From an uncultured Rhodospirillaceae bacterium (GTDB taxonomy: Bacteria; Pseudomonadota; Alphaproteobacteria; UBA9219), in NCBI GenBank assembly GCA_964626265.1, contig CAZVCG010000004.1, positions 5,713 to 69,712 of the forward strand: a stretch of DNA of 64,000 nucleotides, in the 5' to 3' direction. How positions within the stretch are numbered: position 1 is the first letter of the stretch; each line of letters begins with the position of its first letter. Position numbers and translations under genes: made by a program. The notes below the pieces were generated by a model. It had not been told where the DNA came from. It saw only the letters and a program-made list of their open reading frames with translations, and made no database searches. Shown in pieces: positions 14,844-24,827 of this stretch.

Positions 14844-15929
14844 TCAGTTTGCCGCCAAAATATCCAGACGGCTCGCTTTAGGATGCGTCGTATGCCGCTG
14901 GCTGCCGTTAAACTGAGCTTCCCGCCATACGAAACGCTGTATATCCGACATTTCTCCACACCCGAACTTGCTGACAACGGCGCCGTAATTTATCGTTCGC
15001 ATGATTTCGTTACCAGTAAAGAAATCACGCATGATCCGTTCATGGTTATGGCATTCTTCAGAAAAATGAGCCGCTCCGTAAGGAGAAATACCGCTTGGTC
15101 CTTCCTCTAAGCGGGTTTTGCCTGCATGCCACCATTCACCTTCGTAATTACGCAAACCTGCCTTGCGGGTGATGTAATAGTGGAGCCGCCGATTATAAAG
15201 TGCCTCGGTTTCTTTATCGGAAAGCTTATCGCCACGTTCAAGCTTCTCTTCATAAAATCGTGTGGAGGATTCTTTCATCGCCCAGTCGAAGGGTGTACCC
15301 ATATTAAGAGGCGCGCTATGCTCACGGACGAGTTGCATGCGCTCAAGTTCGGCAGAATATACATCATGCCAATCGTCCGACTCAAGCATCGGCTTGATGC
15401 GCAGTAATATTTCCTGAGCAACCTCGGAAAACCTGATGATCGTAAAATCGACACATCCGCCAGTATTATGGGGCGACGGCCTATGCTTACGGGCAGAAGG
15501 CATAGAAACGTAAACCTGTGCTGCTTCTAATGCTTCTTTGCGACTTAATCCACCCGATCTCATGAGCTTCCCAACATAATCTTTGAAAAGCCACGCCTGT
15601 TCCTGAAGGGTTCGGTATCCTTCCCAGACAAGTACCCCATAACCCTCAGGTAGTTCGTTAGTAGCCAAGGAAAAGCTTTCGGCAATACCCTCGCGCATGT
15701 AAGCTCCCCAAAGAGAGCCTTTGATTTCGCCTAGCGCGTAAGGTGAGCTATTCCAACGGATGCCTTTATAAATAGGGTCACAATAGAGCTTATCGTATTT
15801 TGTGAAGGGACCTACAGCGACAAGCCTTTCGCCATTTTCCTGTATTGGAATGCTGTATTGCGGCGGATCTAAAAAAGGAATGGGCTGTGCCCTTGGGTCT
15901 TTAAGGCTATATGGAAGAAGAAGTGACAT
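14844..15929 (-). CDS. M15-family D-Ala-D-Ala dipeptidase-like protein (VanX/DdpX-like), extended
   Basis: VLVWEGYRTLQEQAWLF, SPHNTGGCVDF (SxHxxGxAxD zinc site) and EWWH motifs align with E. coli DdpX. At 361 aa it is about twice the length of DdpX. Confidence 0.6.
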   Translation of the reverse strand: MSLLLPYSLKDPRAQPIPFLDPPQYSIPIQENGERLVAVGPFTKYDKLYCDPIYKGIRWNSSPYALGEIKGSLWGAYMREGIAESFSLATNELPEGYGVLVWEGYRTLQEQAWLFKDYVGKLMRSGGLSRKEALEAAQVYVSMPSARKHRPSPHNTGGCVDFTIIRFSEVAQEILLRIKPMLESDDWHDVYSAELERMQLVREHSAPLNMGTPFDWAMKESSTRFYEEKLERGDKLSDKETEALYNRRLHYYITRKAGLRNYEGEWWHAGKTRLEEGPSGISPYGAAHFSEECHNHERIMRDFFTGNEIMRTINYGAVVSKFGCGEMSDIQRFVWREAQFNGSQRHTTHPKASRLDILAAN

Positions 15930-16090: not shown

Positions 16091-16765
16091 ATGTCCCAAC
16101 GTAGAATTCTTCTTACTCCCGACATCCTTTTGCAGGCCTACGCAGCGGGAATATTCCCGATGGCTGAGCATGCCATGTCGCAGGAGTTGCGTTGGTTCGA
16201 CCCGCCTCTACGCGCCGTCATTCCGCTGGATCACCGATTTCACGTCCCTCGCAGGCTCCGCCGCACGATCCGCCAACAGCCCTATAATATCCGCTTGAAC
16301 ACGGCCTTTGGCGAAGTCATCCGCTGCTGCGCCGCGCCTACACAGGAACGTTCCGTGACATGGATCAACCGCGAGATTATAGGGCTTTATACGACGCTAC
16401 ATCACCGCGGATTCGCGCACAGCGTCGAAGTCTGGGATAGGCACGAACTCGTCGGCGGTCTTTACGGCGTCAGTCTCGGCAGCGCCTTTTTCGGCGAGAG
16501 CATGTTCAGCCGCCGACCGGACGCAAGCAAAATTGCTCTTGTATATTTGGTTGCGCTGCTGCGTGACTGTTCCTTCAAATTACTGGATACGCAATTCCAG
16601 ACGGATCATCTGGCGCAATTCGGGACATTGGAGATCACGCGCGCCAATTATCAGCATCAACTGTCCAAGGCGATCAAAACGCAAAACAAGCTTGCTTTGC
16701 CCGAAAATTCCGACTGGGATCACTTGGTGGCTTCGCTTTTGCAGCCCGTAACCCACAAATCGTAA
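16091..16765 (+). CDS. aat: Leucyl/phenylalanyl-tRNA--protein transferase
   Basis: GIFPM motif and L/F-transferase fold; 224 aa. Confidence 0.9.
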   Translation: MSQRRILLTPDILLQAYAAGIFPMAEHAMSQELRWFDPPLRAVIPLDHRFHVPRRLRRTIRQQPYNIRLNTAFGEVIRCCAAPTQERSVTWINREIIGLYTTLHHRGFAHSVEVWDRHELVGGLYGVSLGSAFFGESMFSRRPDASKIALVYLVALLRDCSFKLLDTQFQTDHLAQFGTLEITRANYQHQLSKAIKTQNKLALPENSDWDHLVASLLQPVTHKS

Positions 16766-17100
16766 ATCGGATGTTCCATCGCGGACAGGGCCGGACTGGA
16801 CGCGAACATCCATCCCTTGAAAACGCCGGATTCCACCGATCCGGGCTTTATTTCGCTTACTTCCAGAAACGCCGCTGCTTCCGGTGTTTCCTCGGGCGGC
16901 GCGACGCGACAGGCGCGAACCGTGATGATAAGCGTGCCGAACTTAAAAGGTTGCTCGATGGGAACGTTGATCTCTTCGACGCGTGCCGTGATTTTGTCCA
17001 ACACTCTCAATACAGCCAAAGGCCTATCTTCGGTCGGCGCAGAGGCGCGAACGTCTCCCGCAGCGATAGCCAGCAAAAATACGATGAGGATACGCCGCAT
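16720..17100 (-). CDS. DUF2155-family secreted protein
   Basis: Signal peptide; LAVLRVLDKITARVEEINVPIE..FKFGTLIITVRAC ... GWMFASSPALSAMEHPIYDLWV matches the alphaproteobacterial DUF2155 pattern. Its 3' end overlaps aat convergently by 46 nt. Confidence 0.6.
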   Translation of the reverse strand: MRRILIVFLLAIAAGDVRASAPTEDRPLAVLRVLDKITARVEEINVPIEQPFKFGTLIITVRACRVAPPEETPEAAAFLEVSEIKPGSVESGVFKGWMFASSPALSAMEHPIYDLWVTGCKSEATK

Positions 17101-18023
17101 TATGGCTTTGCCGGTTCCGGTGGGGTTGCCGTCGGATCGTGTGGCGCAGGCAAGGTTACAGGGGGCAAAACGGAGATATTCGGCGGCGGTAAGTTGTTAA
17201 TATCAGAAGGCGCTGCAGCGTTTTCGGAATCCGTTTTCTGGGATTCGCGGACGGGTTCTTGTTCAGGTTTTGGCGGCACAAGAATCTGTTTTTCTTCCAC
17301 GGGTTTGGAAGGCTGCAAAGTGGATATGATTCCGTCTAAAGATCCCGTTGATGTGGCGGGCGCTATCTTGGCTGGCGCAGGCGCGGCCTTAGCTGGCGCA
17401 GACGGAACAGGAGGTGCCGGCCTTGGCGCAGGCGCGATCGCAGGGGCAGGTTGAGGCGTCGGAACGAAGGATTCGGCGGGCGCTGGAGAAGCCGTAACGG
17501 CAGGCGGAGACGCCGCCCCTATTGAAGAGCCGCTTTTCGATTGCGCGCCATTCCCGTTCTCGGATTTTTTTGATCCGTAAATCAGCTGGCCGATCAAATC
17601 GTCGAGTCGCATCGGCGATTGCGTATGCGTTATTCTTCCCGTTCCGTCCGTTTTGATGTTCTCTTCGTCCACGCCTACTTCAAGCGACATGTACTTGCCG
17701 CCCAAAAGACTCTCGGACGCGACCATGGCAATCGTATCGAGCGGCAATATGATATTGGGCAACAAAGTCATGTGTACGTCGACTTTATATTGATTTGGGC
17801 CTGGTTTAGTGACAAGTTCCAGATTCGATATGGAACCGACTTTGACGCCGTTCATCTTTACGTCCGTTCCTTCTTTTAGACCATCGACCTTGGGAAAATA
17901 AGCGCTGACCGTATAGCCCTGCACTTTCTGCAAATCGGCGCTCGAATAAGCAAAAACAAGAAACACGCCGGCGACAATAAGCACGACTGCGCCGAGCACG
18001 GTTTCAATTGCATTGCGTCCCAT
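17100..18023 (-). CDS. MlaD-like MCE-domain protein with Pro/Ala-rich C-terminal extension
   Basis: N-terminal TM plus MCE domain (ETVLGAVVLIVAGVFLVFAY...YTVSAYFPKVDGLKEGTDVKMNGVKVGSI), followed by a long PAPAP low-complexity tail. Confidence 0.75.
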   Translation of the reverse strand: MGRNAIETVLGAVVLIVAGVFLVFAYSSADLQKVQGYTVSAYFPKVDGLKEGTDVKMNGVKVGSISNLELVTKPGPNQYKVDVHMTLLPNIILPLDTIAMVASESLLGGKYMSLEVGVDEENIKTDGTGRITHTQSPMRLDDLIGQLIYGSKKSENGNGAQSKSGSSIGAASPPAVTASPAPAESFVPTPQPAPAIAPAPRPAPPVPSAPAKAAPAPAKIAPATSTGSLDGIISTLQPSKPVEEKQILVPPKPEQEPVRESQKTDSENAAAPSDINNLPPPNISVLPPVTLPAPHDPTATPPEPAKP

Positions 18024-18525
18024 AGATCAGCTCCTCGAATGGCTTTGGCTTTAACAAGAATGAATCGTCATCTCCTATTTGCCACCAAACATGGTTAACG
18101 GCAAATCCTTTGGAGCCCCATGGGCTCTTTCGTCGCGCATTCTTTTTTCGTGGTGCGGATTCGATGAGGATTCGGTGACACAAGTTTGCCTTGATATTTT
18201 TCATTCGGCAAGATTCTGAAACAATCGGAACTGAAATAATCACAGGAATTATTCGATGTTCTTACGCGAATTCTCGGAAGCCCATAATTGCCCAAATATA
18301 CGAAAATTATAGGGATAGCCCATCAGTACCGTGCATGAAACGCCTCAAAAACGTTCATGAGCGACTTTAATAACTGCCAAGAATAAACCTGATTATTGTT
18401 ACGGAGAGGGAACAATGGGAGAGAATTTGGGGAGAGAAAGGTGTGGATTGTGAATAAGTAATTCTTTATGCATACCATATTTTGTGGCATATTCAGACGT
18501 AACCGCATGATCTTGTGGATAACTT

Positions 18526-20604
18526 ATGCCCATCGCCGCCCCCGAGTCCTGGTCCAACGAAGCCGTTGACGCGTTTTCCGACGCTTTTTATGATGCCAAG
18601 CCATTGAAATTACAGCCTGTTGAAGAAAACACGCTTCCATCTTGGCTATGGTTAAAGCGACCTGCTGATAATCGCGTTGTTAACGAATCAAGTATTTACC
18701 AAGTTATCGAACGCGTCGCCGCCTCGGCCGCTTATCTCGGCTGGAAAAAAGGCCTCTGGCAGGACGAATCCGAAGCCCGCGCCTTTTACGACGACGTCAG
18801 CTATATGCTCACGCACCGCATGATCGCGCTTGAGCCAAAGGATATGAAATTGTTGGGCGTTGACTGGGCGTATGGAACGACAACCCATTCACCATCACAA
18901 ACAAAAACTTCGCATTTCTCTGCAACCCACACCATCACCAACACCGCAATAGACGCCATCATCAGCGGCACGGAACCTGAGCAGAGGACCAATTGGCAGA
19001 GGTTTCTGCGCGGCTCCAAAGAGGCCAAGCCGCTAACATTGAAATTCGCGGATACGGCACAGGAATGGGGAACAGCGGGCGCTTCGGCGACGCAGGCCTC
19101 CGGTGATAATGCTCCCCGGCTTGCCATCGATCTGTTCAAATTCCTGCGCGAGGACGGCTCTCTGGCCCTCACGGTGCTTCAACATGCCGTACGGCTCTCC
19201 GTTCTACTTCTTGAATTGCATTATGAAGCTCTTTCGATCTCGAACGATCCCGAGCGCAAGCTAGCCATCGGTTATGTCAACCTCTCCCCGCTCCTTATGG
19301 CCATGGGCCATCCCTACGACAGCGCCATCGCCCGCTCTACGGCCGCCGCCTTAAGCGCTATCATCACCGCAGAAGCAGTCATTACGTCATCGGAAATCGC
19401 CGCGACGTTCGGTCCTTGTCACGCCTTTGCCGACAACCGCGAAGCCGCGCTGCGCGCCCTGCGCAACCGCCACCGCGCCGTCTATGGTGAGCGCAACGAC
19501 TATGAACACCTCTCCATCCTCCCCTCCCCCCTCGACGTTGACGACGGCGCCGACCTTGTTCTTCTTGCGGCAGCGCGACGTTCTTGGGACGAAGCCATCG
19601 CCGAAGTCCAGAACCACGGACTGCGCCATTTGCAGCTGACCGCGCTCTTTAATGCGCAGGTTTTCATACCCTTGCTGGATTGTTCATCGCAGGGCATCGA
19701 GCCGGAACGCCACCTCGTTCGTCAGCAATCCTTGGGACCCGAAACGTTCCGGCGCGTGTTGAACCCGGCTGTGGCCAAAGCTTTGCGTATCGCCAAACTC
19801 GATGTCGCCGATATCAAGGCCATTACCGATTATGCCGTCGGCTATCACACGCTTGTAGGAGCGCCAGCTATCAGCCATGACGCTTTGCGCGCCAAAGGTT
19901 TCGATGGCCCATCACTTGAACGTTTGGAATCCTATCTGCCGCATGTCAGCCATATCCGTCAGGCCTTTACGGTATGGATTTTGGGTGACGCATTCTGTCG
20001 CGAGAGCCTGAATATCGACTCCCCCGATTTGCTCGACCCGCGCTTCGACCTTTTGAAGCACATAGGTTTCAGCGAAAAAGACATCGCCGTGGCCAACGCT
20101 TTCTGCTGCGGCAAAGGAACTGTGGCAGGCGCGCTTGAGTTACCCGAAAGACTAGCAAAAGCGTTGGATCTTTCTCTCCTTACGCCAGACGCCATGATCC
20201 GCATGGCGGCGGCCGTGCAAAGCATGATTATGGGCGACGTTGGCTTGACGATTGCGCTGCCTGCGACGGCCTCCATGGACGATCGCGAAAACCTGTTCCT
20301 GTCGGCATGGATGCAGGGATTGAAAAGCGTTACGTTGACGTTCGAGCGCAAGTTCGCGTTGCAAGGACATGCACACGATCATGCGATGGACAAGCACGAA
20401 CGCCGCGTTCAGCAGCGCAAACTTTTACAAAGGAAAATATTGCAGCCGCCCGTGCCGATTCCTTCGCACAAACGCGCATCGCTGCACATGAAAGTTCCCG
20501 CCCACGCATCAAAGCCCCTCGCAAAACACAAAGAAAGAGCGCATACCCGAGCCGTGAGCCTCAAACGCAGCGCGGCGAAGGTGATGCAGACACGGGTGAA
20601 GTGA
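18526..20604 (+). CDS. Class II ribonucleotide reductase (NrdJ) paralogue lacking recognisable catalytic-cysteine motifs; possible pseudo-enzyme
   Basis: Several blocks align with NrdJ/RNR: IAAPESWSNEAVDAFSDAFYDAK, ERVAASAAYLGW...FYDDVSYML, AVRLSVLLLE, KLAIGYVNLSPLLMAMGHPYDS, GLKSVTLTFERK. The NPCGE/SNLCxE thiyl-radical motif is not found; the aligned site reads DNAPRLAID. Confidence 0.6.
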   Translation: MPIAAPESWSNEAVDAFSDAFYDAKPLKLQPVEENTLPSWLWLKRPADNRVVNESSIYQVIERVAASAAYLGWKKGLWQDESEARAFYDDVSYMLTHRMIALEPKDMKLLGVDWAYGTTTHSPSQTKTSHFSATHTITNTAIDAIISGTEPEQRTNWQRFLRGSKEAKPLTLKFADTAQEWGTAGASATQASGDNAPRLAIDLFKFLREDGSLALTVLQHAVRLSVLLLELHYEALSISNDPERKLAIGYVNLSPLLMAMGHPYDSAIARSTAAALSAIITAEAVITSSEIAATFGPCHAFADNREAALRALRNRHRAVYGERNDYEHLSILPSPLDVDDGADLVLLAAARRSWDEAIAEVQNHGLRHLQLTALFNAQVFIPLLDCSSQGIEPERHLVRQQSLGPETFRRVLNPAVAKALRIAKLDVADIKAITDYAVGYHTLVGAPAISHDALRAKGFDGPSLERLESYLPHVSHIRQAFTVWILGDAFCRESLNIDSPDLLDPRFDLLKHIGFSEKDIAVANAFCCGKGTVAGALELPERLAKALDLSLLTPDAMIRMAAAVQSMIMGDVGLTIALPATASMDDRENLFLSAWMQGLKSVTLTFERKFALQGHAHDHAMDKHERRVQQRKLLQRKILQPPVPIPSHKRASLHMKVPAHASKPLAKHKERAHTRAVSLKRSAAKVMQTRVK

Positions 20605-20635
20605 GATTCGAAACGCCGGATAGCCTTGCAAGGCA

Positions 20636-21301
20636 TCAAACCGAGTTCTCAAGCAGTTTCGAGCTGACGGCGGGAGATTTTACGTCCTCTCTCGACGGTC
20701 CTTTTTTGCATTTCGTTTGCGCGCCCCTGCGGCGGAAAAAGGCGCCGGAACGGCTATCGGGATAATTGTCTTCATGCTTTTGAGGAAAAGGTATTACGTT
20801 TGCGCCATGTCCGGACTTTAGCGAGTCATCAGGCTTATTCAAGGTTTCAGGATGACGAAAATCATGGATAATTTCCTTGAGGACGGCATAGTTTTCCCGA
20901 AAAGAGATGCTTGCAGAACTATATGCCGCTTTGGCGCTTGCGGTAAGATTGCGGCCAGCCTGAATGAACGACCGGATCGTTTTTATGCGCCGATTAGTCA
21001 GGGCATCGGAGAAACCATGAACCATGCCGCCGATCTCTTCTATATTGTGCGGAAGACGGCCGATTTTCTCATGAACGCTTTTTTTAAGATTGTGGACATG
21101 AAGCGGCAGATTTTGGGTAAATTCCACTGCCGCAAATGCCGGATCTTCCAGACCCTTCATAAAAAAATGCATAGCTACTAAACCCGCGAGGGGATTCTCC
21201 CCCCTTGCTGCGGCATAAATGCAACCGCAACCGAGGGCTGTGTAGGCTGCGTGCTTGAAAATTTTAACTATAAGCGGTGTGTTCTTCCGCTGCTTCTCCA
21301 T
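20636..21301 (-). CDS. Hypothetical protein
   Basis: 222-aa ORF from ATG 21301 (MEKQRKNTPLIV...). No recognisable motifs. The track ORF extends to 21355. Confidence 0.4.
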   Translation of the reverse strand: MEKQRKNTPLIVKIFKHAAYTALGCGCIYAAARGENPLAGLVAMHFFMKGLEDPAFAAVEFTQNLPLHVHNLKKSVHEKIGRLPHNIEEIGGMVHGFSDALTNRRIKTIRSFIQAGRNLTASAKAAYSSASISFRENYAVLKEIIHDFRHPETLNKPDDSLKSGHGANVIPFPQKHEDNYPDSRSGAFFRRRGAQTKCKKGPSREDVKSPAVSSKLLENSV

Positions 21302-21520
21302 GGCCCTTCCCTTCAATTTCAATAAGTTACTAAAAAAAAGAACTAACTCTTGCATTCAGGACATACCCTAAATCACAAAAGCGGCAAAAAAATGGTTCCA
21401 TCTATGGTTTTTTCATGAATCTATTAATTAAATCATAAGATTAATTTCAGTCTTTCCCAAAAAGCATTTTTTGAACGGGTATACCTGAAAGTAACAATGG
21501 GTGTGTTCGTAAAAACACAA

Positions 21521-21733
21521 TTAATCGAGCTTACTTGACTTATATGGAAACGTTAAGTCGTTCGGGTCGAAAAACGCGCGGTAACGTTTATAGGCCTCTA
21601 CCAATTCCGGCATGTAATTAACGAGTGGCCTCAACCGGCAGAGTCCGATCAGGTACAATGGCGGGTTGTAACCGCCATGGTTAAACATGCTTTGTTTGCT
21701 GTATTTCTTGTAAGATATGTTGCGTAAGATCAT
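21521..21733 (-). CDS. Putative BrnA-like (ribbon-helix-helix) antitoxin
   Basis: Small ORF immediately downstream of BrnT, overlapping it by 53 nt. RLRPLVNYMPELVEAYKRYRA resembles the RHH strand-helix of BrnA. Start uncertain. Confidence 0.4.
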   Translation of the reverse strand: MILRNISYKKYSKQSMFNHGGYNPPLYLIGLCRLRPLVNYMPELVEAYKRYRAFFDPNDLTFPYKSSKLD

Positions 21734-21989
21734 ATAAATAATCTTCTCCCTTCATTAGCCGTCTAAGGCCAAATACGATGACGGTCTCGCCTTCGAGTTG
21801 AAAGACAAGCTGGTACAAACGCCCACGAATTTTGCCTACGGCCCTATAATATTGGCTGCCTCCATGCATATACGCCTTTGTGCACAGTGAGGCATTCGTC
21901 CAGTCGAACTCCCACGCCATATTGAAATTCAATCCCGTTTCGGCAATGTTTTTGGCATTTATTTTTGGATCGTAATCGATGTGAAACAC
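21681..21989 (-). CDS. brnT: BrnT-family toxin (DUF497, RelE-like ribonuclease)
   Basis: FHIDYDPKINAKNIAETGLNFNMAWEF ... YRAVGKIRGRLYQLVFQLEGETVIVFGLRRLMKGE matches the BrnT pattern (F.WD..K...N..KHG..F.EA...F......R....G...G.L..VV.T.R....RIIS.R). Confidence 0.6.
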   Translation of the reverse strand: MFHIDYDPKINAKNIAETGLNFNMAWEFDWTNASLCTKAYMHGGSQYYRAVGKIRGRLYQLVFQLEGETVIVFGLRRLMKGEDYLYDLTQHILQEIQQTKHV

Positions 21990-22110
21990 ATTTCCCCTTA
22001 TGCATTGCCGGTTACGTTGCGCTTACAATATTAGGAATATAATTCTATCTTGCGGAAAAGTCACGCGTTTTGTTTGGTTAATGGGGGATTTTCAAAAATG
22101 CCTTCAATAT

Positions 22111-22243
22111 GTCATCCCGACTAAAGTCGGGATCCAGTAGATATGGACAATATATTTCACTGTAATTGACACGTTGAACCGCCCAGACAAGGGCCAGTAA
22201 TTAATGGATGCTCCCTCTGGACCCCGACTTTCGTCGGGATGAC
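22111..22243. mobile_element. 133-bp palindromic repeat element (MITE/RPE-like), intergenic copy
   Basis: 25-nt palindromes in inverted orientation at both ends: 22111-22135 gtcatcccgactaaagtcgggatcc and 22219-22243 ggaccccgactttcgtcgggatgac. The internal sequence is related to the copy inside yejF. Confidence 0.55.
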
Positions 22244-22267
22244 GCCAATGGCAGCGCCTCCCTAGAC

Positions 22268-23905
22268 TTACTCGGCCAGTTTCTTCGCGACGTAGGCGCG
22301 GACTTTGTCAAGCGTGACGCGTTCCTGCTGCGCCGTGTCGCGGTCGCGGATCGTGACGGCCTGATCCTTGAGCGTGTCGCCGTCGATGGTGACGCAATAC
22401 GGCGTGCCGCATTCGTCCATACGGGCGTAGCGCTTGCCGATGGATTGCTTGGCGTCGTACTGGCACATGTAATCCTTGCGCAAGTCCATATAAAGCTTTT
22501 CGGCGACTTCGGGCATCCCGTCCTTGTTGACGAGCGGGAAGATGCCCATCTTGACCGGCGCGAGGGACGGCTTGATCTTGAGCCATTCCGGCGACGGACG
22601 GCTTTCGTCGTATTGATAAGCTTCGCACAGCAAGACCAGCACGCCGCGCGTCAGGCCGCTCGACGGCTCGACGACATGCGGCACATAGCGGCGGTTCGCT
22701 TCCTGATCGAAGTAGTCCAGCTTTTGCTTGCTGAACGTCTGGTGCTGCGTAAGGTCGTAATCGGTGCGATACGCCACGCCTTCCAGTTCGCCGAAGCCCG
22801 GCGACGTGAACGGGTATTTGTATTCGATGTCGGATGTGCCTTTGGAATAATGCGCGAGGTCTTGCGGCGCAATAATATGGCGGAACAGGTTTTCCGCCTT
22901 GACGCCGCAGCTTTCCCACCATTTCATGCGCAAGGCCACCCAGAACTCGTACCATGACAGGCCGTCTTCGGGCGCGCAGAAGAACTCGATCTCCATCTGC
23001 TCGAACTCGCGCACGCGGAAGATGAAGTTGCGCGGCGTGACTTCGTTGCGGAACGCCTTGCCGATTTGCGCGACGCCGAACGGGATCTTCACGCGGCAGG
23101 TATCGACGATATTCTTGTATTGCAGAAAGATGCCCTGCGCCGTTTCGGGCCGGAGATAGACTTTGCTGGCCTCGTCCTGAAGAACGCCCACGTGCGATTC
23201 AAACATCAGGTTGAACATGCGCGGCTCTGTCAAATCGCCGCCGCATTCGGGACAAGGCATGATAAGGCCCGTTTGCGCTTTTTGTTCCGTGGCCAGATAA
23301 CGTAGCAACTCAATTAAAGGCAGCGGCGACGGCGTATCCTTCTTATCCTCAACCAGCCATGACAGCGTGACCTGGGGATTTCTGACTAGCGCAAGACCGG
23401 GAGCCAGTTTTTTGCCTTTCTTCTGCGCCCATTGCAGGGCGGCTCCGGAGTCAAAAACGACTATGCTTCTCAATAAGGCGCCAAGCTCCAGAGAGTCCAC
23501 GGCAGCAACCTTCATGGCATCCGCAAACGATTTGACCCACTCGGCTTCATGAAGCATGTCCTCGACATGATCGGCGCGGAAAAGCTTTTTGCACTTGCGG
23601 CATGTTTGCATCGGATCGGCAAAACCGCCGACGTGGCCCGAGGCGTGCCACGTGGTCGGGTGCTGGATGATCGTGCTGTCGAGGCCGAGGATCGACATCG
23701 GCTTGCCGTCAGGGCCAAGCGGCGGACATTCCACCGTTTCGCGCCACCACTTGTCGCGCAGGTGGTTCTTGAGCTGCGTGCCGAGCGGGCCGAAATCCCA
23801 GAAACCGTTCAAACCGCCGTAAATCTCCGAGGCGGGATAAATAAACCCGCGGCGTTTGCACAAGGAGACAATGCGGTTCATGAGAGGCGTTTCGGGGGCG
23901 GCCAT
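22268..23905 (-). CDS. glyQS: Glycine--tRNA ligase, homodimeric alpha2 type
   Basis: N-terminal IVSLCKRRGFIYPASEIYGG..G.WD.GPLG is the class II alpha2 GlyRS signature, with an anticodon-binding C-terminus. Start set at ATG 23905; the track ORF is 105 nt longer. Confidence 0.85.
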   Translation of the reverse strand: MAAPETPLMNRIVSLCKRRGFIYPASEIYGGLNGFWDFGPLGTQLKNHLRDKWWRETVECPPLGPDGKPMSILGLDSTIIQHPTTWHASGHVGGFADPMQTCRKCKKLFRADHVEDMLHEAEWVKSFADAMKVAAVDSLELGALLRSIVVFDSGAALQWAQKKGKKLAPGLALVRNPQVTLSWLVEDKKDTPSPLPLIELLRYLATEQKAQTGLIMPCPECGGDLTEPRMFNLMFESHVGVLQDEASKVYLRPETAQGIFLQYKNIVDTCRVKIPFGVAQIGKAFRNEVTPRNFIFRVREFEQMEIEFFCAPEDGLSWYEFWVALRMKWWESCGVKAENLFRHIIAPQDLAHYSKGTSDIEYKYPFTSPGFGELEGVAYRTDYDLTQHQTFSKQKLDYFDQEANRRYVPHVVEPSSGLTRGVLVLLCEAYQYDESRPSPEWLKIKPSLAPVKMGIFPLVNKDGMPEVAEKLYMDLRKDYMCQYDAKQSIGKRYARMDECGTPYCVTIDGDTLKDQAVTIRDRDTAQQERVTLDKVRAYVAKKLAE

Positions 23906-24002: not shown

Positions 24003-24827
24003 TCAAGCAAGGCGGGCGTCGGCTTCCTTGATTTGCTTTTGCAGGGCGCGCCACGCGATGCTGCTCACGATGCCGTGCCAGAAATAATGGCCGATGAAGC
24101 CGCAGGCTTTCAGGATCATGGCGACGATGCGGTCCATGTCCTGCCGCGTGTAAGGCGTGAACGCGCGCGTGAGATAAGCGTCGGCGCAGGCCTGGCGTTT
24201 ATAGGGATAGCCGTCCGGCGCATTGGAGGCGTGATAGGCGAACGCCAGCTCATCGTCGCCGGACTCCTTAATGCGTTCGATAGCGACCCGGAAACGTTTC
24301 AGGCGGCTCATTTTCTCATGTTTTACGTAGCCCGTGAGGTGGCTGTAGAACATAGCATAGTGCTTGAACTCGTCGCCCGCGATGTTATGGCAGATCGCTT
24401 TCAGGAGCGGCTCGTCCGTCGCGCGGCCAAGCGCAGTGTAATAGGAACTTGTTCCGACCTCGACAACGCAGCGGGAAACTAACTCGCCTGCGCGTGAACC
24501 GCGCGAGGATTGGCTGGCCGCAACGTCGATTTTGTGCCCGTCCTTGTATCGCGCGAAAGCCTTGCCGAATTTGAACGACGGATCGGCGATCTGCGCGTAG
24601 CGGCCCAGCGTTTCGCCGTGCTGGCGTTCTTCCGCCGCCCAGTAGCTGACGGCGCGCTGAAAGATGGGGTCGTCGGCGAAAACGTGATTAAGGTATTGCT
24701 CATAGTCGTCCGCGCCGTATTCGACCATGGCGGCGGCTTTGACGATCATCAAATGGTCGGAATTGAGTCTTTTGGGATCAAAAGAGTCCCATGGCAGGTC
24801 GTCGATGGTCCAGCGTTCTTTCTTCAT
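24003..24827 (-). CDS. Ferritin-like diiron-carboxylate protein (acyl-ACP-desaturase-like)
   Basis: Two ExxH-type motifs, AAEERQHGE and AGDEFKHYA, reminiscent of the EENRHG / DExRHE motifs of soluble diiron desaturases and oxygenases. Confidence 0.5.
   Translation of the reverse strand: MKKERWTIDDLPWDSFDPKRLNSDHLMIVKAAAMVEYGADDYEQYLNHVFADDPIFQRAVSYWAAEERQHGETLGRYAQIADPSFKFGKAFARYKDGHKIDVAASQSSRGSRAGELVSRCVVEVGTSSYYTALGRATDEPLLKAICHNIAGDEFKHYAMFYSHLTGYVKHEKMSRLKRFRVAIERIKESGDDELAFAYHASNAPDGYPYKRQACADAYLTRAFTPYTRQDMDRIVAMILKACGFIGHYFWHGIVSSIAWRALQKQIKEADARLA

What the first reader, a model, noticed from the sequence alone, without database searches (positions are those of the whole stretch)
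18526..20604. Full-length but apparently catalytically dead paralogue of B12-dependent ribonucleotide reductase (NrdJ-like pseudo-enzyme)
The 692-aa product aligns block by block with class II RNR: N-terminus IAAPESWSNEAVDAFSDAFYDAK versus NrdJ IEVPAGWSQVATDVLAQKYFRK; ERVAASAAYLGW...FYDDVSYMLTHRMIAL versus the RNR F.RVA.AIA...GW...FY.L....KFLPNSPTL block; AVRLSVLLLE; KLAIGYVNLSPLLMAMGHPYDS versus R.IGLGVMG.ADALI.LGIPYDSEEA; and the C-terminal GLKSVTLTFERK versus GLKGVTVYRDGS. These consensus strings are recalled from memory, not taken from a database. At the position expected for the thiyl-radical cysteine motif (NPCGE in class II, SNLCLE in class I) the sequence reads DNAPRLAID, and no C-terminal CxxC redox pair is evident. 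It is far shorter than the ~1200-aa alphaproteobacterial NrdJ. A conserved-fold RNR relative without the radical chemistry would be a regulatory or structural pseudo-enzyme, possibly a nucleotide sensor. Its function would be new.
Basis: partly seen in the sequence, partly recalled or inferred. Interest (0 to 1): 0.7.

Follow-up and report, generated by a model that had tools for sequence, protein, structure and literature searches.

The report
Dead B12 ribonucleotide reductase, still kept
This gene descends from the vitamin-B12-dependent enzyme that makes DNA building blocks, has lost every part needed for that chemistry, and yet has been kept intact and under the same regulator in dozens of predatory-type bacterial species, so the old enzyme probably had a second, non-catalytic job that is still unknown.

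Summary
The ORF (window 18526-20604, +, 692 aa) is real and is homologous to class II RNR (NrdJ). Its best structural match is the Rhodobacter sphaeroides NrdJ, 7b9p. It is not full-length. About 200 aa of the first half-barrel, the NxCxE finger loop, both redox cysteines and the TSCPD/Zn-finger C-terminus are gone, and the APTGT and SKTIN motifs are degenerate. It is the only NrdJ-like gene in a 99.8%-complete genome and sits in the ancestral nrdJ slot, so it is an orthologue-derived relic, not an extra paralogue. Real dNTP synthesis falls to a class III NrdD with an NrdG-like ORF downstream. It is not a pseudogene. Forty species representatives of a Micavibrio-like clade keep it intact, core dN/dS is 0.19 or less, and a canonical tandem NrdR operator precedes it in 34 of the 40. 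Sixty-seven positions stay conserved with true NrdJ, 136 lost constraint and only 8 gained it, which points to retention of an ancestral non-catalytic role. Dead NrdJ genes arose independently at least three times, and the Haematobacter copy is also under purifying selection. The function is unknown. A nucleotide-sensor role is unsupported.

The parts
18472..18487 (+). NrdR box 1 (ATACCATATTTTGTGG)
   Evidence: 6 of 6 published conserved positions (C4 A6 A8 T9 T11 G13; PMC13584703). Conserved at the same place in orthologues of other genera.
18503..18518 (+). NrdR box 2 (CCGCATGATCTTGTGG), 15-bp linker after box 1
   Evidence: 5 of 6 conserved positions. The 31-bp box-to-box spacing matches the published 15-16 bp linker. 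Only 17 such pairs occur in the 1.93 Mb genome, and 34 of 40 species representatives have one here.
18526..20604 (+). CDS of the non-catalytic NrdJ derivative (692 aa plus stop)
   Evidence: ORF; Pfam, NCBIfam and PDB homology; AF2 model with pLDDT 86.9.
18532..18885 (+). N-terminal class II RNR domain (aa 3-120), including the invariant EENTLPSWLW (aa 33-42, nt 18622-18651)
   Evidence: PF08471 match. The motif is invariant in the dead family and is also present in true alphaproteobacterial NrdJs.
18916..18921 (+). Junction of the ~199-aa deletion (between aa 131 and 132), which removes the first barrel strands, the first redox Cys and the allosteric-loop region
   Evidence: Alignment blocks P0001 124-131 = P0026 184-191 and 132-152 = 391-411.
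18919..19104 (+). Remnant of the first half-barrel (aa 132-193; two predicted strands, aligned with NrdJ 'NNSVRI' and 'GLQFDTTINEW')
19105..19131 (+). DNAPRLAID (aa 194-202). It follows the site of the deleted NPCSE finger loop and aligns with NrdJ DTACNLAS, with P197 in place of the second redox Cys
19117..19764 (+). Second half-barrel with its helices (aa 198-413). The APTGT motif is replaced by FNAQV
   Evidence: Pfam barrel match to profile 255-458; motif table; model.
19765..20184 (+). Large helical insert shared with R. sphaeroides NrdJ (aa ~414-553). It may correspond to the published 'HUG' domain, but the boundaries were not verified
   Evidence: Continuous alignment to 7b9p residues ~710-860. 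Absent from the ~950-aa NrdJ type. Conserved in dead forms.
20185..20352 (+). Last two barrel strands (aa 554-609). SKTIN is replaced by GLTIA and YRDGS by TFERK
20353..20601 (+). Disordered polybasic C-terminal tail (aa 610-692, pI ~11.9), standing in place of the TSCPD domain and Zn finger
   Evidence: pLDDT below 50; pI; 11-21 K/R in the last 70 aa of every family member; faster evolution than the core.

Best explanation
SHOWN. The gene is the lineage's own nrdJ (class II, B12-dependent RNR of the alphaproteobacterial NrdJd type) after an ancient loss of catalysis. It has lost the first barrel strands with the allosteric-loop region, the NxCxE thiyl-radical finger loop, both active-site redox cysteines, the APTGT and SKTIN substrate motifs and the C-terminal TSCPD/Zn-finger reductant shuttle, so it cannot reduce ribonucleotides. 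In this genome dNTPs are made by a class III NrdD with an NrdG-like ORF downstream, and the genome shows no sign of B12 use. The dead gene is nevertheless kept intact under purifying selection in about 40 species of a Micavibrio-like clade. It still carries a canonical tandem NrdR operator, so by the published behaviour of NrdR it should be repressed when dATP is plentiful and expressed together with the real RNR genes when dNTPs are needed. INFERRED. The protein works non-catalytically, as a binding or scaffolding protein that continues a second, catalysis-independent role which alphaproteobacterial NrdJ already had. That role would reside in the retained N-terminal domain (invariant EENTxPSWLW), the second half-barrel helices and the large helical insert. 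In this family the lost TSCPD domain is replaced by a disordered polybasic tail that could tether it to nucleic acid or an acidic partner. The partner and the cellular process, most plausibly dNTP supply or DNA replication given the NrdR control, are not identified.
For: Loss of catalysis: no NxCxE or CxxC in any of 25+ family members, whereas all true NrdJ hits have both. Alignments show the deletions and substitutions. The signature table reads CNCEC/APTGT/SKT[IV]N in every full-length true NrdJ and none of these in dead forms. NCBIfam NrdJ equivalog score is 351 against a cutoff of 1737. Not split: no other RNR barrel match, R2, missing half or TSCPD in the 99.8%-complete genome. Real RNR: NrdD at 572 bits with a TRVMGYFRP glycyl motif and a downstream radical-SAM ORF. 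No B12 riboswitch and no B12-binding domain over cutoff. Orthology by position: the same aat-DUF2155-MlaD-NDUFA12 slot holds a true nrdJ elsewhere. Selection: intact frames in 21 of 24 family genomes and in 40 species representatives; core pN 0.24-0.36 against pS 0.72-0.86, giving dN/dS of 0.19 or less. Fold: pLDDT 86.9, TM 0.71 to 7b9p. NrdR control: NrdR gene present; box 1 6/6 and box 2 5/6 of the published key positions with a 15-bp linker; 34 of 40 species have such a pair against ~0.2 expected; nrdD has one too. Ancestral sub-function: 67 sites conserved identically in dead and true forms, 136 lost constraint, only 8 gained; EENTxPSWL also occurs in true NrdJs of Azospirillum, Stella and Kordiimonas. 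Recurrence: the Haematobacter dead NrdJ nests inside Rhodobacterales true NrdJs and has dN/dS 0.12; P0108/P0163 are a further separate origin.
Against: No partner, ligand or phenotype is known, so the functional part is inference from conservation and regulation only. There is no expression evidence. Three of 24 family genomes (G006, G010, G014) lack the gene, so it is dispensable in some lineages. Retention of the operator could simply tune the cost of an unrelated function. Other dead lineages (P0144, P0108, Haematobacter) show no clear tandem NrdR boxes. The canonical RNR dimer interface lies in the deleted region, so even the oligomeric state is unknown. The basic tail is specific to this family; sister families keep the TSCPD domain instead. 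The tail therefore cannot be the core of the shared function.
Confidence: 0.6

Rival explanations
1. Accessory or regulatory subunit of the dNTP-supply machinery. The dead NrdJ binds the functional RNR (NrdD or NrdAB), its activase or reductant, or NrdR itself, and modulates their activity or localisation. This is a specific version of the best explanation.
For: It is co-regulated with nrdD through NrdR operators. It retains protein-protein-type modules: the N-terminal domain and the helical insert.
Against: It co-occurs indifferently with NrdD only, NrdAB only or both, so it cannot be a class-specific partner. No interaction was tested.
Confidence: 0.2
2. Nucleoid or nucleic-acid-associated protein. 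The acquired polybasic disordered tail binds DNA or RNA, and the RNR-like core is a bulky scaffold, for example one linked to replication.
For: Tail pI is ~11.9 and it is disordered. Every family member has 11-21 K/R in its last 70 residues. The acidic core (pI 5.6) with a basic tail recalls histone-like tails (own knowledge).
Against: The tail is poorly conserved and fast-evolving. Sister dead families keep a TSCPD domain and have no such tail. True NrdJ has a linker at the same place. No DNA-binding domain was detected.
Confidence: 0.12
3. Nucleotide or cofactor sensor. The dead barrel still binds a (deoxy)nucleotide or adenosylcobalamin and signals its level.
For: RNRs are rich in nucleotide sites. 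NrdR control ties the gene to nucleotide status.
Against: The stretch that carries loops 1 and 2 and the specificity site in RNRs is deleted (site location from established T. maritima NrdJ structures and PMC9669993 Fig. 1). The APTGT and SKTIN motifs are degenerate. The protein has no ATP-cone; the genome's only one is NrdR. The cobalamin site sits over the deleted active site (own knowledge), and the genome shows no B12 riboswitch or B12 enzymes.
Confidence: 0.07
4. Slowly decaying relic with no function, open only by chance or through recent inactivation.
For: It evolves 3-5 times faster than true NrdJ. There are lineage-specific deletions. It is lost in 3 of 24 family genomes.
Against: Open frames persist in 40 species although synonymous sites are saturated. 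dN/dS is 0.19 or less. There are 67 invariant or near-invariant sites. The operator is conserved. The AF2 fold is confident.
Confidence: 0.03
5. Still a reductase, through a trans-supplied catalytic half (split gene as in NrdJa/NrdJb) or migrated catalytic residues.
For: Split class II RNRs exist (PMC5704485, PMC9669993). Two or three cysteines are conserved in the helical insert.
Against: tblastn with three true NrdJs finds no second fragment, and Pfam finds no other barrel match in a 99.8%-complete genome. Three barrel strands and the whole finger loop are missing. The substrate motifs are gone.
Confidence: 0.02

Closest known systems
Class II (adenosylcobalamin-dependent) ribonucleotide reductase NrdJ, alphaproteobacterial NrdJd type (Rhodobacter sphaeroides structure 7B9P/7B9Q; NCBIfam NF005736)
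   Same: Clear homologue and evolutionary descendant. It has the same N-terminal domain (PF08471), second half-barrel and large helical insert, sits at the same genomic slot, and has the same NrdR operator architecture.
   Different: It lacks the first barrel strands, the NxCxE finger loop, both redox Cys, the APTGT and SKTIN motifs and the TSCPD/Zn-finger domain. It scores 351 bits against the equivalog cutoff of 1737, is 692 aa rather than ~1200 aa, and evolves 3-5 times faster.
Catalytically inactive R1 homologues of betaherpesviruses (for example MCMV M45, HCMV UL45); from my own knowledge, not tested here
   Same: An RNR large-subunit homologue that has lost catalytic residues and is retained for a non-enzymatic role.
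   Different: Those are viral, class I-derived, keep the whole barrel, and act on host cell-death signalling through added motifs. This protein is bacterial, class II-derived, has large deletions in the barrel, and remains under the RNR regulator.
Split class II RNR NrdJa + NrdJb (Pseudomonas aeruginosa type; PMC5704485, PMC9669993)
   Same: A class II RNR whose polypeptide lacks part of the canonical NrdJ.
   Different: In NrdJa/b the missing C-terminal module is encoded by a second gene and the enzyme is active. Here no complementary fragment exists in the genome, and the missing part is the catalytic core.
Other dead NrdJ-like proteins found here: 811-1089-aa forms in sister families of the same order, Haematobacter missouriensis/massiliensis (915 aa, WP_051930301.1, annotated 'vitamin B12-dependent ribonucleotide reductase'), and ~70 further metagenomic clusters
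   Same: They show the same loss of CNCEC/APTGT/SKTIN and the same retention of the N-terminal domain and helical insert. The Haematobacter copy is under purifying selection.
   Different: Most keep a finger loop of normal length without the Cys, and often keep the TSCPD domain. Haematobacter and P0108/P0163 are independent inactivations. No clear tandem NrdR boxes were seen in the three examined.
NCBIfam NF005401 (PRK06948) 'ribonucleotide reductase-like protein'
   Same: An annotated family of RNR-like proteins of uncertain activity and similar size (~600 aa).
   Different: Only a 49-bit local match against a cutoff of 906, so it is not a member.

Membership tests
Class II RNR (NrdJ) as an enzyme | Finger loop with an NxCxE motif carrying the thiyl-radical cysteine (PMC9669993: classes O, I and II share NXCXE) | tested here: not met
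   No NxC[GSAT]E in the protein or in any family member. The loop (NPCSEYNFLD of P0026) is deleted.
Class II RNR (NrdJ) as an enzyme | Ten-stranded alpha/beta barrel of two five-stranded halves (betaA-E and betaF-J) | tested here: not met
   About 199 aa of the first half are deleted. Pfam matches only profile positions 255-522 of 523. The model has about 7 strands at aligned positions.
Class II RNR (NrdJ) as an enzyme | Active-site redox cysteine pair | tested here: not met
   The first Cys (PHACF) lies in the deleted stretch, and the second (TACNLAS) is replaced by Pro197.
Class II RNR (NrdJ) as an enzyme | Conserved second-half motifs APTGT and SKT[IV]N, invariant in all 40+ true NrdJs examined | tested here: not met
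   The protein has FNAQV and GLTIA instead. 136 sites conserved in true NrdJ have lost constraint.
Class II RNR (NrdJ) as an enzyme | C-terminal reductant-shuttle module (TSCPD/IscU-like domain plus Cys-rich Zn finger; PMC5704485) | tested here: not met
   No PF12637 match and no CxxC. The module is replaced by a basic disordered tail.
Class II RNR (NrdJ) as an enzyme | Curated equivalog score (NF005736 cutoff 1737; TIGR02504 cutoff 400) | tested here: not met
   351.5 and 93.9 bits respectively.
Class II RNR (NrdJ) as an enzyme | Adenosylcobalamin binding and ribonucleotide reduction | not testable with these tools
   Needs biochemistry. Indirectly unlikely: the active site is deleted and the genome has no B12 riboswitch or B12 domain.
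RNR large-subunit superfamily (homology only) | Significant sequence and fold similarity to RNR catalytic subunits | tested here: met
   Pfam PF02867 at 91 bits (cutoff 23.9) and PF08471 at 47 bits (cutoff 27); 7b9p at E 5e-80; Foldseek TM 0.71.
NrdR regulon | [quoted passage not shown] | tested here: met
   Boxes at 18472-18487 (6/6) and 18503-18518 (5/6) with a 15-bp linker. NrdR is at G000:C11:16217-16477. The pair is conserved in 34 of 40 species against a genome background of 17 pairs per 1.93 Mb. Binding itself was not tested.
Pseudogene | Disrupted frame or neutral evolution (dN/dS near 1) | tested here: not met
   No stops in 40 species. dN/dS is 0.19 or less.
Split NrdJa/NrdJb | Complementary fragment encoded elsewhere in the genome | tested here: not met
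   tblastn and Pfam searches of the own genome found none.
NF005401 ribonucleotide reductase-like protein | Curated cutoff of 906 bits | tested here: not met
   49.3 bits.

The most novel reading that the evidence does not exclude
Alphaproteobacterial NrdJ is a moonlighting protein. Its N-terminal domain (EENTxPSWLW) and helical insert carry a catalysis-independent function important enough that, whenever a lineage switches to another RNR class or stops using B12, the gene is hollowed out rather than lost. This has happened repeatedly and independently (Micavibrio-like order, Haematobacter, small-genome symbiont-like lineages). It has produced a large, unrecognised family of bacterial pseudo-RNRs, about 120 clusters at 50% identity, that current pipelines call either 'hypothetical protein' or, wrongly, 'B12-dependent ribonucleotide reductase'.
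Probability: 0.35. Interest if true: 0.8.

Novelty: new variant of a known kind. Interest (0 to 1): 0.68.

Why it matters
RNR is among the best-studied essential enzymes, and its catalytic cysteine is treated as universal. A bacterial RNR homologue that has discarded the whole active site, yet stays under selection and under the RNR-specific repressor in dozens of species, would be the first bacterial counterpart I know of to the viral dead R1 proteins. Independent repeats of the same outcome in other alphaproteobacteria argue that NrdJ has a hidden second role, and these natural separation-of-function alleles make that role directly testable. Micavibrio aeruginosavorus and Haematobacter are cultivable. 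There is also a practical side. Genome annotation and metabolic reconstruction currently count some of these genes as functional B12-dependent RNRs (the Haematobacter records) and miss others as 'hypothetical'. Both errors distort inferences about B12 dependence and oxygen lifestyle.

Tried and rejected
Homodimer prediction (two copies of aa 112-609 with the family alignment) gave no verdict, score 0.00; this is no evidence either way.
Search for RNA-seq runs: no RNA holder is listed. Only DNA holders were found (two hot-spring metagenome runs of one study with 0.64 or more of the words, possibly the source sample).
Rfam scan of 16500-22500: no riboswitch or leader; only a sub-threshold WsnRNA46 hit.
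Sigma-70 promoter and terminator scan: nothing above the shuffle expectation upstream of the gene.
PADLOC: no defence-system match. PHROGs: only RNR large-subunit families.
Protein atlas: only RNR or hypothetical clusters.
Literature searches for bacterial dead or degenerate RNR or NrdJ, and for Micavibrio RNR, found nothing relevant.
The paper describing the HUG domain is not held. Only its title was verified, so the HUG-domain boundaries are unverified.
'EENTxPSWLW is a new constraint of the dead family': rejected, because true NrdJs of Azospirillum, Stella, Kordiimonas and others carry it.
'All dead NrdJ-like proteins are one ancient paralogue family': suggested by FastTree and largely by IQ-TREE C20. 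Rejected as long-branch attraction, because the Haematobacter copy nests inside Rhodobacterales true NrdJs once other long branches are removed, and it is most similar to them.
First tree contained four antisense-ORF artefacts from my own ORF picker; it was redone.
Genomes with two strong NrdJ matches in the class sample were single true genes split over contigs, not true-plus-dead pairs.
A tandem-box hit at G000:C7:3449 lies inside a coding region and is probably chance.
Model coordinates are not exposed, so surface or contact mapping of conserved residues could not be done.
Full report
OBSERVATION. The window holds an ATG-to-stop ORF at 18526-20604 (+) encoding 692 aa. A TAA at 18520-18522 closes the frame upstream. 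Pfam finds the class II RNR N-terminal domain (PF08471, aa 3-97, E 3e-12). It also finds the RNR barrel domain (PF02867, E 8e-26), but only profile positions 255-458 and 470-522 of 523. The NCBIfam equivalog for the ~1200-aa NrdJ (NF005736) scores 351 bits against a cutoff of 1737. The best solved relative is the Rhodobacter sphaeroides RNR 7b9p (E 5e-80). Query residues 3-134 align to chain residues 41-178 and query 221-589 to chain 518-895, so about 340 residues of the enzyme correspond to about 87 residues here.

WHAT IS MISSING. I aligned the protein with family members and with true NrdJs that a search returned. Relative to the closest true NrdJ (P0026, 1195 aa) it lacks the following:
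- Residues 192-390. This stretch holds the first redox cysteine in 'PHACF', the GSGTGSNFS...TTRRAAKM region, and a helical insert.
- Residues 412-425.
- Residues 467-476, which are the finger-loop sequence NPCSEYNFLD.
- A 9-residue Cys-containing loop.
- The last ~208 residues, comprising the TSCPD/IscU-like domain and the CxxC...CxxC zinc finger.
The thiyl-radical motif itself is deleted just before it.
A motif table over 164 sequences is unambiguous. Every full-length true NrdJ reads C-N-C-E-C at the five catalytic positions and has APTGT and SKT[IV]N. This protein has FNAQV and GLTIA, and no dead form has any of the motifs. Published work defines the RNR barrel as two five-stranded halves joined by the finger loop, with NXCXE shared by classes O, I and II (PMC9669993). 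The Cys-rich C-terminal domain is described as the electron shuttle (PMC5704485). The protein therefore fails every enzymatic membership criterion I could test while remaining a clear homologue.
An AlphaFold2 model built on a 46-sequence family alignment is confident (pLDDT 86.9, pTM 0.84) for residues 1-609 and disordered for 610-692. Foldseek places it with 7b9p (TM 0.71 by query), then T. maritima NrdJ and class I R1 proteins.

THE GENOME.
- The assembly (1.93 Mb, 99.8% complete) has no other RNR barrel match and no R2 subunit.
- tblastn with three true NrdJs finds neither the missing half nor a TSCPD domain. This is therefore not a split gene.
- A class III NrdD is present (572 bits). It has the C-terminal ...TRVMGYFRP... 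glycyl-radical motif, a zinc-site CxxC pair and a radical-SAM NrdG-like ORF directly downstream.
- There is no cobalamin riboswitch and no B12-binding domain above cutoff. This fits a lineage that has abandoned B12 chemistry.

NOT A PSEUDOGENE.
- Of the 24 other genomes of the same family searched, 21 have an intact 680-740-aa frame with the same gaps.
- A species-representative scan returned 40 such genes, from MAGs labelled uncultured Rhodospirillaceae, Alphaproteobacteria, Micavibrio sp., Micavibrio aeruginosavorus and 'Bdellovibrionales'. It also returned 40 true NrdJs. The split was perfect: no dead gene has NxCxE or a C-terminal CxxC, every true gene has NPCSE, and 38 of the 40 also have a C-terminal CxxC pair.
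- Same-genus pairs give core pN of 0.24-0.36 against saturated pS of 0.72-0.86, so dN/dS is 0.13-0.19 or lower. The tail evolves faster.
- The family spans about 30 clusters even at 50% identity.

ORIGIN. In a relative's long contig the gene lies in the order accBC-aat-DUF2155-MlaD-NDUFA12-[gene]-...-glyS-...-dnaA, as it does in the window. The closest true NrdJ, P0026, lies in the same aat-DUF2155-MlaD-NDUFA12 slot. The gene is therefore the positional descendant of the ancestral nrdJ, not an extra paralogue.
Sister families of the same order hold longer dead forms. One of 1089 aa has a full-length finger loop reading QQNGF. There are also forms of 1019 aa, 882 aa and 811-845 aa. Each has different deletions, and most still carry the TSCPD domain but no Zn finger.
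On an IQ-TREE (LG+C20) tree all dead forms of the order are one clade (SH-aLRT 100, stem 0.63), sister to 20 true alphaproteobacterial NrdJs, with branches 3-5 times longer. The simplest reading is one ancient loss of catalysis at the base of the order, followed by piecemeal erosion of the now useless parts.

REGULATION. The genome encodes NrdR (a 159-aa ATP-cone ORF). Upstream of the gene lie two boxes, ATACCATATTTTGTGG (18472-18487) and CCGCATGATCTTGTGG (18503-18518). They are followed by ATAACTT and the ATG.
The published operator definition is two partially palindromic 16-bp boxes, a 15-16-bp linker, and conserved C4, A6, A8, T9, T11 and G13 (PMC13584703). Box 1 meets 6/6 and box 2 meets 5/6, and the linker is 15 bp.
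Only 17 such pairs exist in the whole genome, and another of them precedes nrdD. Thirty-four of the 40 species representatives carry such a pair upstream of the dead gene, where about 0.2 would be expected by chance. Related species are not independent samples, but synonymous sites are saturated, so unselected intergenic DNA should have randomised.
NrdR binds DNA as a tetramer loaded with ATP plus dATP and is released with ATP alone (PMC9110341; 10.1101/2024.05.27.596032). The dead gene should therefore be co-expressed with the real RNR when dNTPs are scarce. Binding and expression were not tested.

WHERE CONSTRAINT REMAINS. I compared 39 dead with 40 true sequences site by site:
- 67 positions are at least 90% conserved with the same residue in both. 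They include EENTxPSWLW, the W-A-Y-G motif, the PYDS/RNxRRA helices, many positions of the helical insert, and M560, Q565 and W595.
- 136 positions that are at least 95% conserved in true NrdJ have lost constraint. They include the HTCP, CNLAS, APTGT, DCDTTG...KFKKL, SKTIN and YRDGSKLSQPL elements.
- Only 8 positions gained constraint, and 10 carry a different conserved residue.
This is the signature of sub-function retention rather than invention of a new site. The EENTxPSWL motif, which I first took for a novelty, also occurs in true NrdJs of Azospirillum, Stella, Kordiimonas, Kiloniellaceae and Hyphomicrobiales.
The C-terminal tail (pI ~11.9; 11-21 K/R in the last 70 residues of every member) is specific to this family. 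It replaces the TSCPD domain that sister families keep.

A WIDER PHENOMENON. Among the 50%-identity representatives, about 70 further clusters of 780-1270-aa NrdJ-like proteins lack all the catalytic signatures. Many keep a finger loop of normal length without Cys, Asn or Glu.
One is from the cultured Haematobacter missouriensis and H. massiliensis (WP_051930301.1 and others), annotated as 'vitamin B12-dependent ribonucleotide reductase'.
Two others (P0144, and P0108 on a 1.47-Mb chromosome, GCA_964277385.1) sit in the same DUF2155-MlaD-NDUFA12 slot.
In a class-wide sample of 251 genomes, 154 have a true NrdJ over the equivalog cutoff. About 16, mostly small genomes from several families, have only a sub-cutoff gene.
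Trees containing all dead forms put nearly all of them in one clade, but this is long-branch attraction:
- The Haematobacter protein is most similar to all 11 Rhodobacterales true NrdJs tested (785-819 bits, against 683-724 for other alphaproteobacteria).
- With the other long branches left out, it nests inside the Rhodobacterales NrdJ clade (SH-aLRT 100; 99 for a sub-clade).
- P0108 and P0163 separate even in the joint C20 tree.
At least three independent inactivations are therefore supported. The Haematobacter pair has dN/dS of 0.12 at an unsaturated dS of 0.72, so an independently dead copy is also maintained. Loderer et al. noted that 'a few Alphaproteobacteria' have two NrdJd enzymes of which only one contains the Cys-rich domain (PMC5704485). 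Some of those second copies may be such dead forms, but I did not verify co-occurrence in any genome.

INTERPRETATION. Shown:
- Homology to NrdJ.
- Loss of all tested catalytic determinants.
- Absence of a complementing fragment.
- Presence of a class III system.
- Positional orthology with nrdJ.
- Purifying selection.
- A conserved canonical NrdR operator.
- Recurrence of the same outcome in other lineages.
Inferred: the protein acts non-catalytically and continues a second role that alphaproteobacterial NrdJ already had, located in the N-terminal domain, the second half-barrel and the helical insert, and probably connected with dNTP supply or replication because of the NrdR control. The partner is unknown.
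The dead gene co-occurs with NrdD only, with NrdAB only, or with both, and three family genomes lack it. It is therefore not a class-specific subunit and is not universally indispensable.

NOVELTY. I found no description of a bacterial catalytically dead RNR family in the searchable literature. The nearest concept I know of is the inactive R1 homologues of betaherpesviruses (own knowledge). I rate this a new variant of a known kind: a pseudo-enzyme derived from a known enzyme family.

USE OF UNPUBLISHED GENOMES. G024 contributes one row to the family tallies and one row (L015) to the series alignment. G072 contributes one true-NrdJ row. No conclusion depends on either.

Noticed in passing
window 18503-18528: In this genus (G000 and G001) the N-terminal ~35 aa found in other family members (MxxERLFT...PYD..F) and the ~50-nt 5' leader are missing. 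The ATG lies 7 nt after NrdR box 2, with an in-frame TAA just before it and no visible Shine-Dalgarno sequence. The mRNA may be leaderless, or the promoter may be rearranged.
   Followed up: partly
G000:C38:1415-1524 (L116), outside the window: Two adjacent NrdR-like box pairs (each 6/6 + 5/6, 32-bp spacing) lie about 170-270 bp upstream of a GcrA cell-cycle-regulator gene. This may link NrdR to cell-cycle control in this genome, or it may be chance.
   Followed up: partly
window 18024-18525: Relatives and other alphaproteobacteria have an NDUFA12-like gene between MlaD and (dead) nrdJ (L016, L019, L114, L115). The window has a 500-bp gap there with no ORF of 80 aa or more, so the gene seems to have been lost in this genus.
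   Followed up: no
window 17100-18023 (-): The MlaD homologue is 307 aa, with a long Pro/Ala-rich low-complexity C-terminal extension. Relatives have 150-200 aa.
   Followed up: no
window 24003-24827 (-): A 274-aa ferritin-like di-iron protein (weak FA_desaturase_2 and rubrerythrin matches; EERQHG and GDEFKH motifs) overlaps the start of glyS by 8 nt. A syntenic 269-aa ORF without a Pfam match occurs in a relative (L016).
   Followed up: no
window 22090-22262 (+): A sub-threshold Rfam match to Wolbachia sRNA 46 (WsnRNA46; 32.5 bits against a gathering score of 65.3; E 9e-4) lies next to glyS.
   Followed up: no
G000 contigs C6:39887, C11:27556, C33:19626 and 20274, C34:7517, 8340 and 17126: A recurring 18-bp palindrome-like element, ACACAATAACTATTGTGT (and variants), appears at several places in the genome. 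It could be a repeat element or the site of another regulator.
   Followed up: no
L113:9001-11748 and L131:3001-5748 (Haematobacter): Public records annotate the catalytically dead 915-aa Haematobacter protein as 'vitamin B12-dependent ribonucleotide reductase', and one record calls it a 'YebC/PmpR family DNA-binding transcriptional regulator'. The latter apparently comes from a TACO1_YebC_N-like Pfam hit in a helical insert that true NrdJs (for example P0026) also carry.
   Followed up: partly
window 14844-15929 (-): A 361-aa protein with a weak D-Ala-D-Ala dipeptidase (Peptidase_M15/VanX-like) match lies between accC and aat. It is absent from that position in the relative's contig L016.
   Followed up: no
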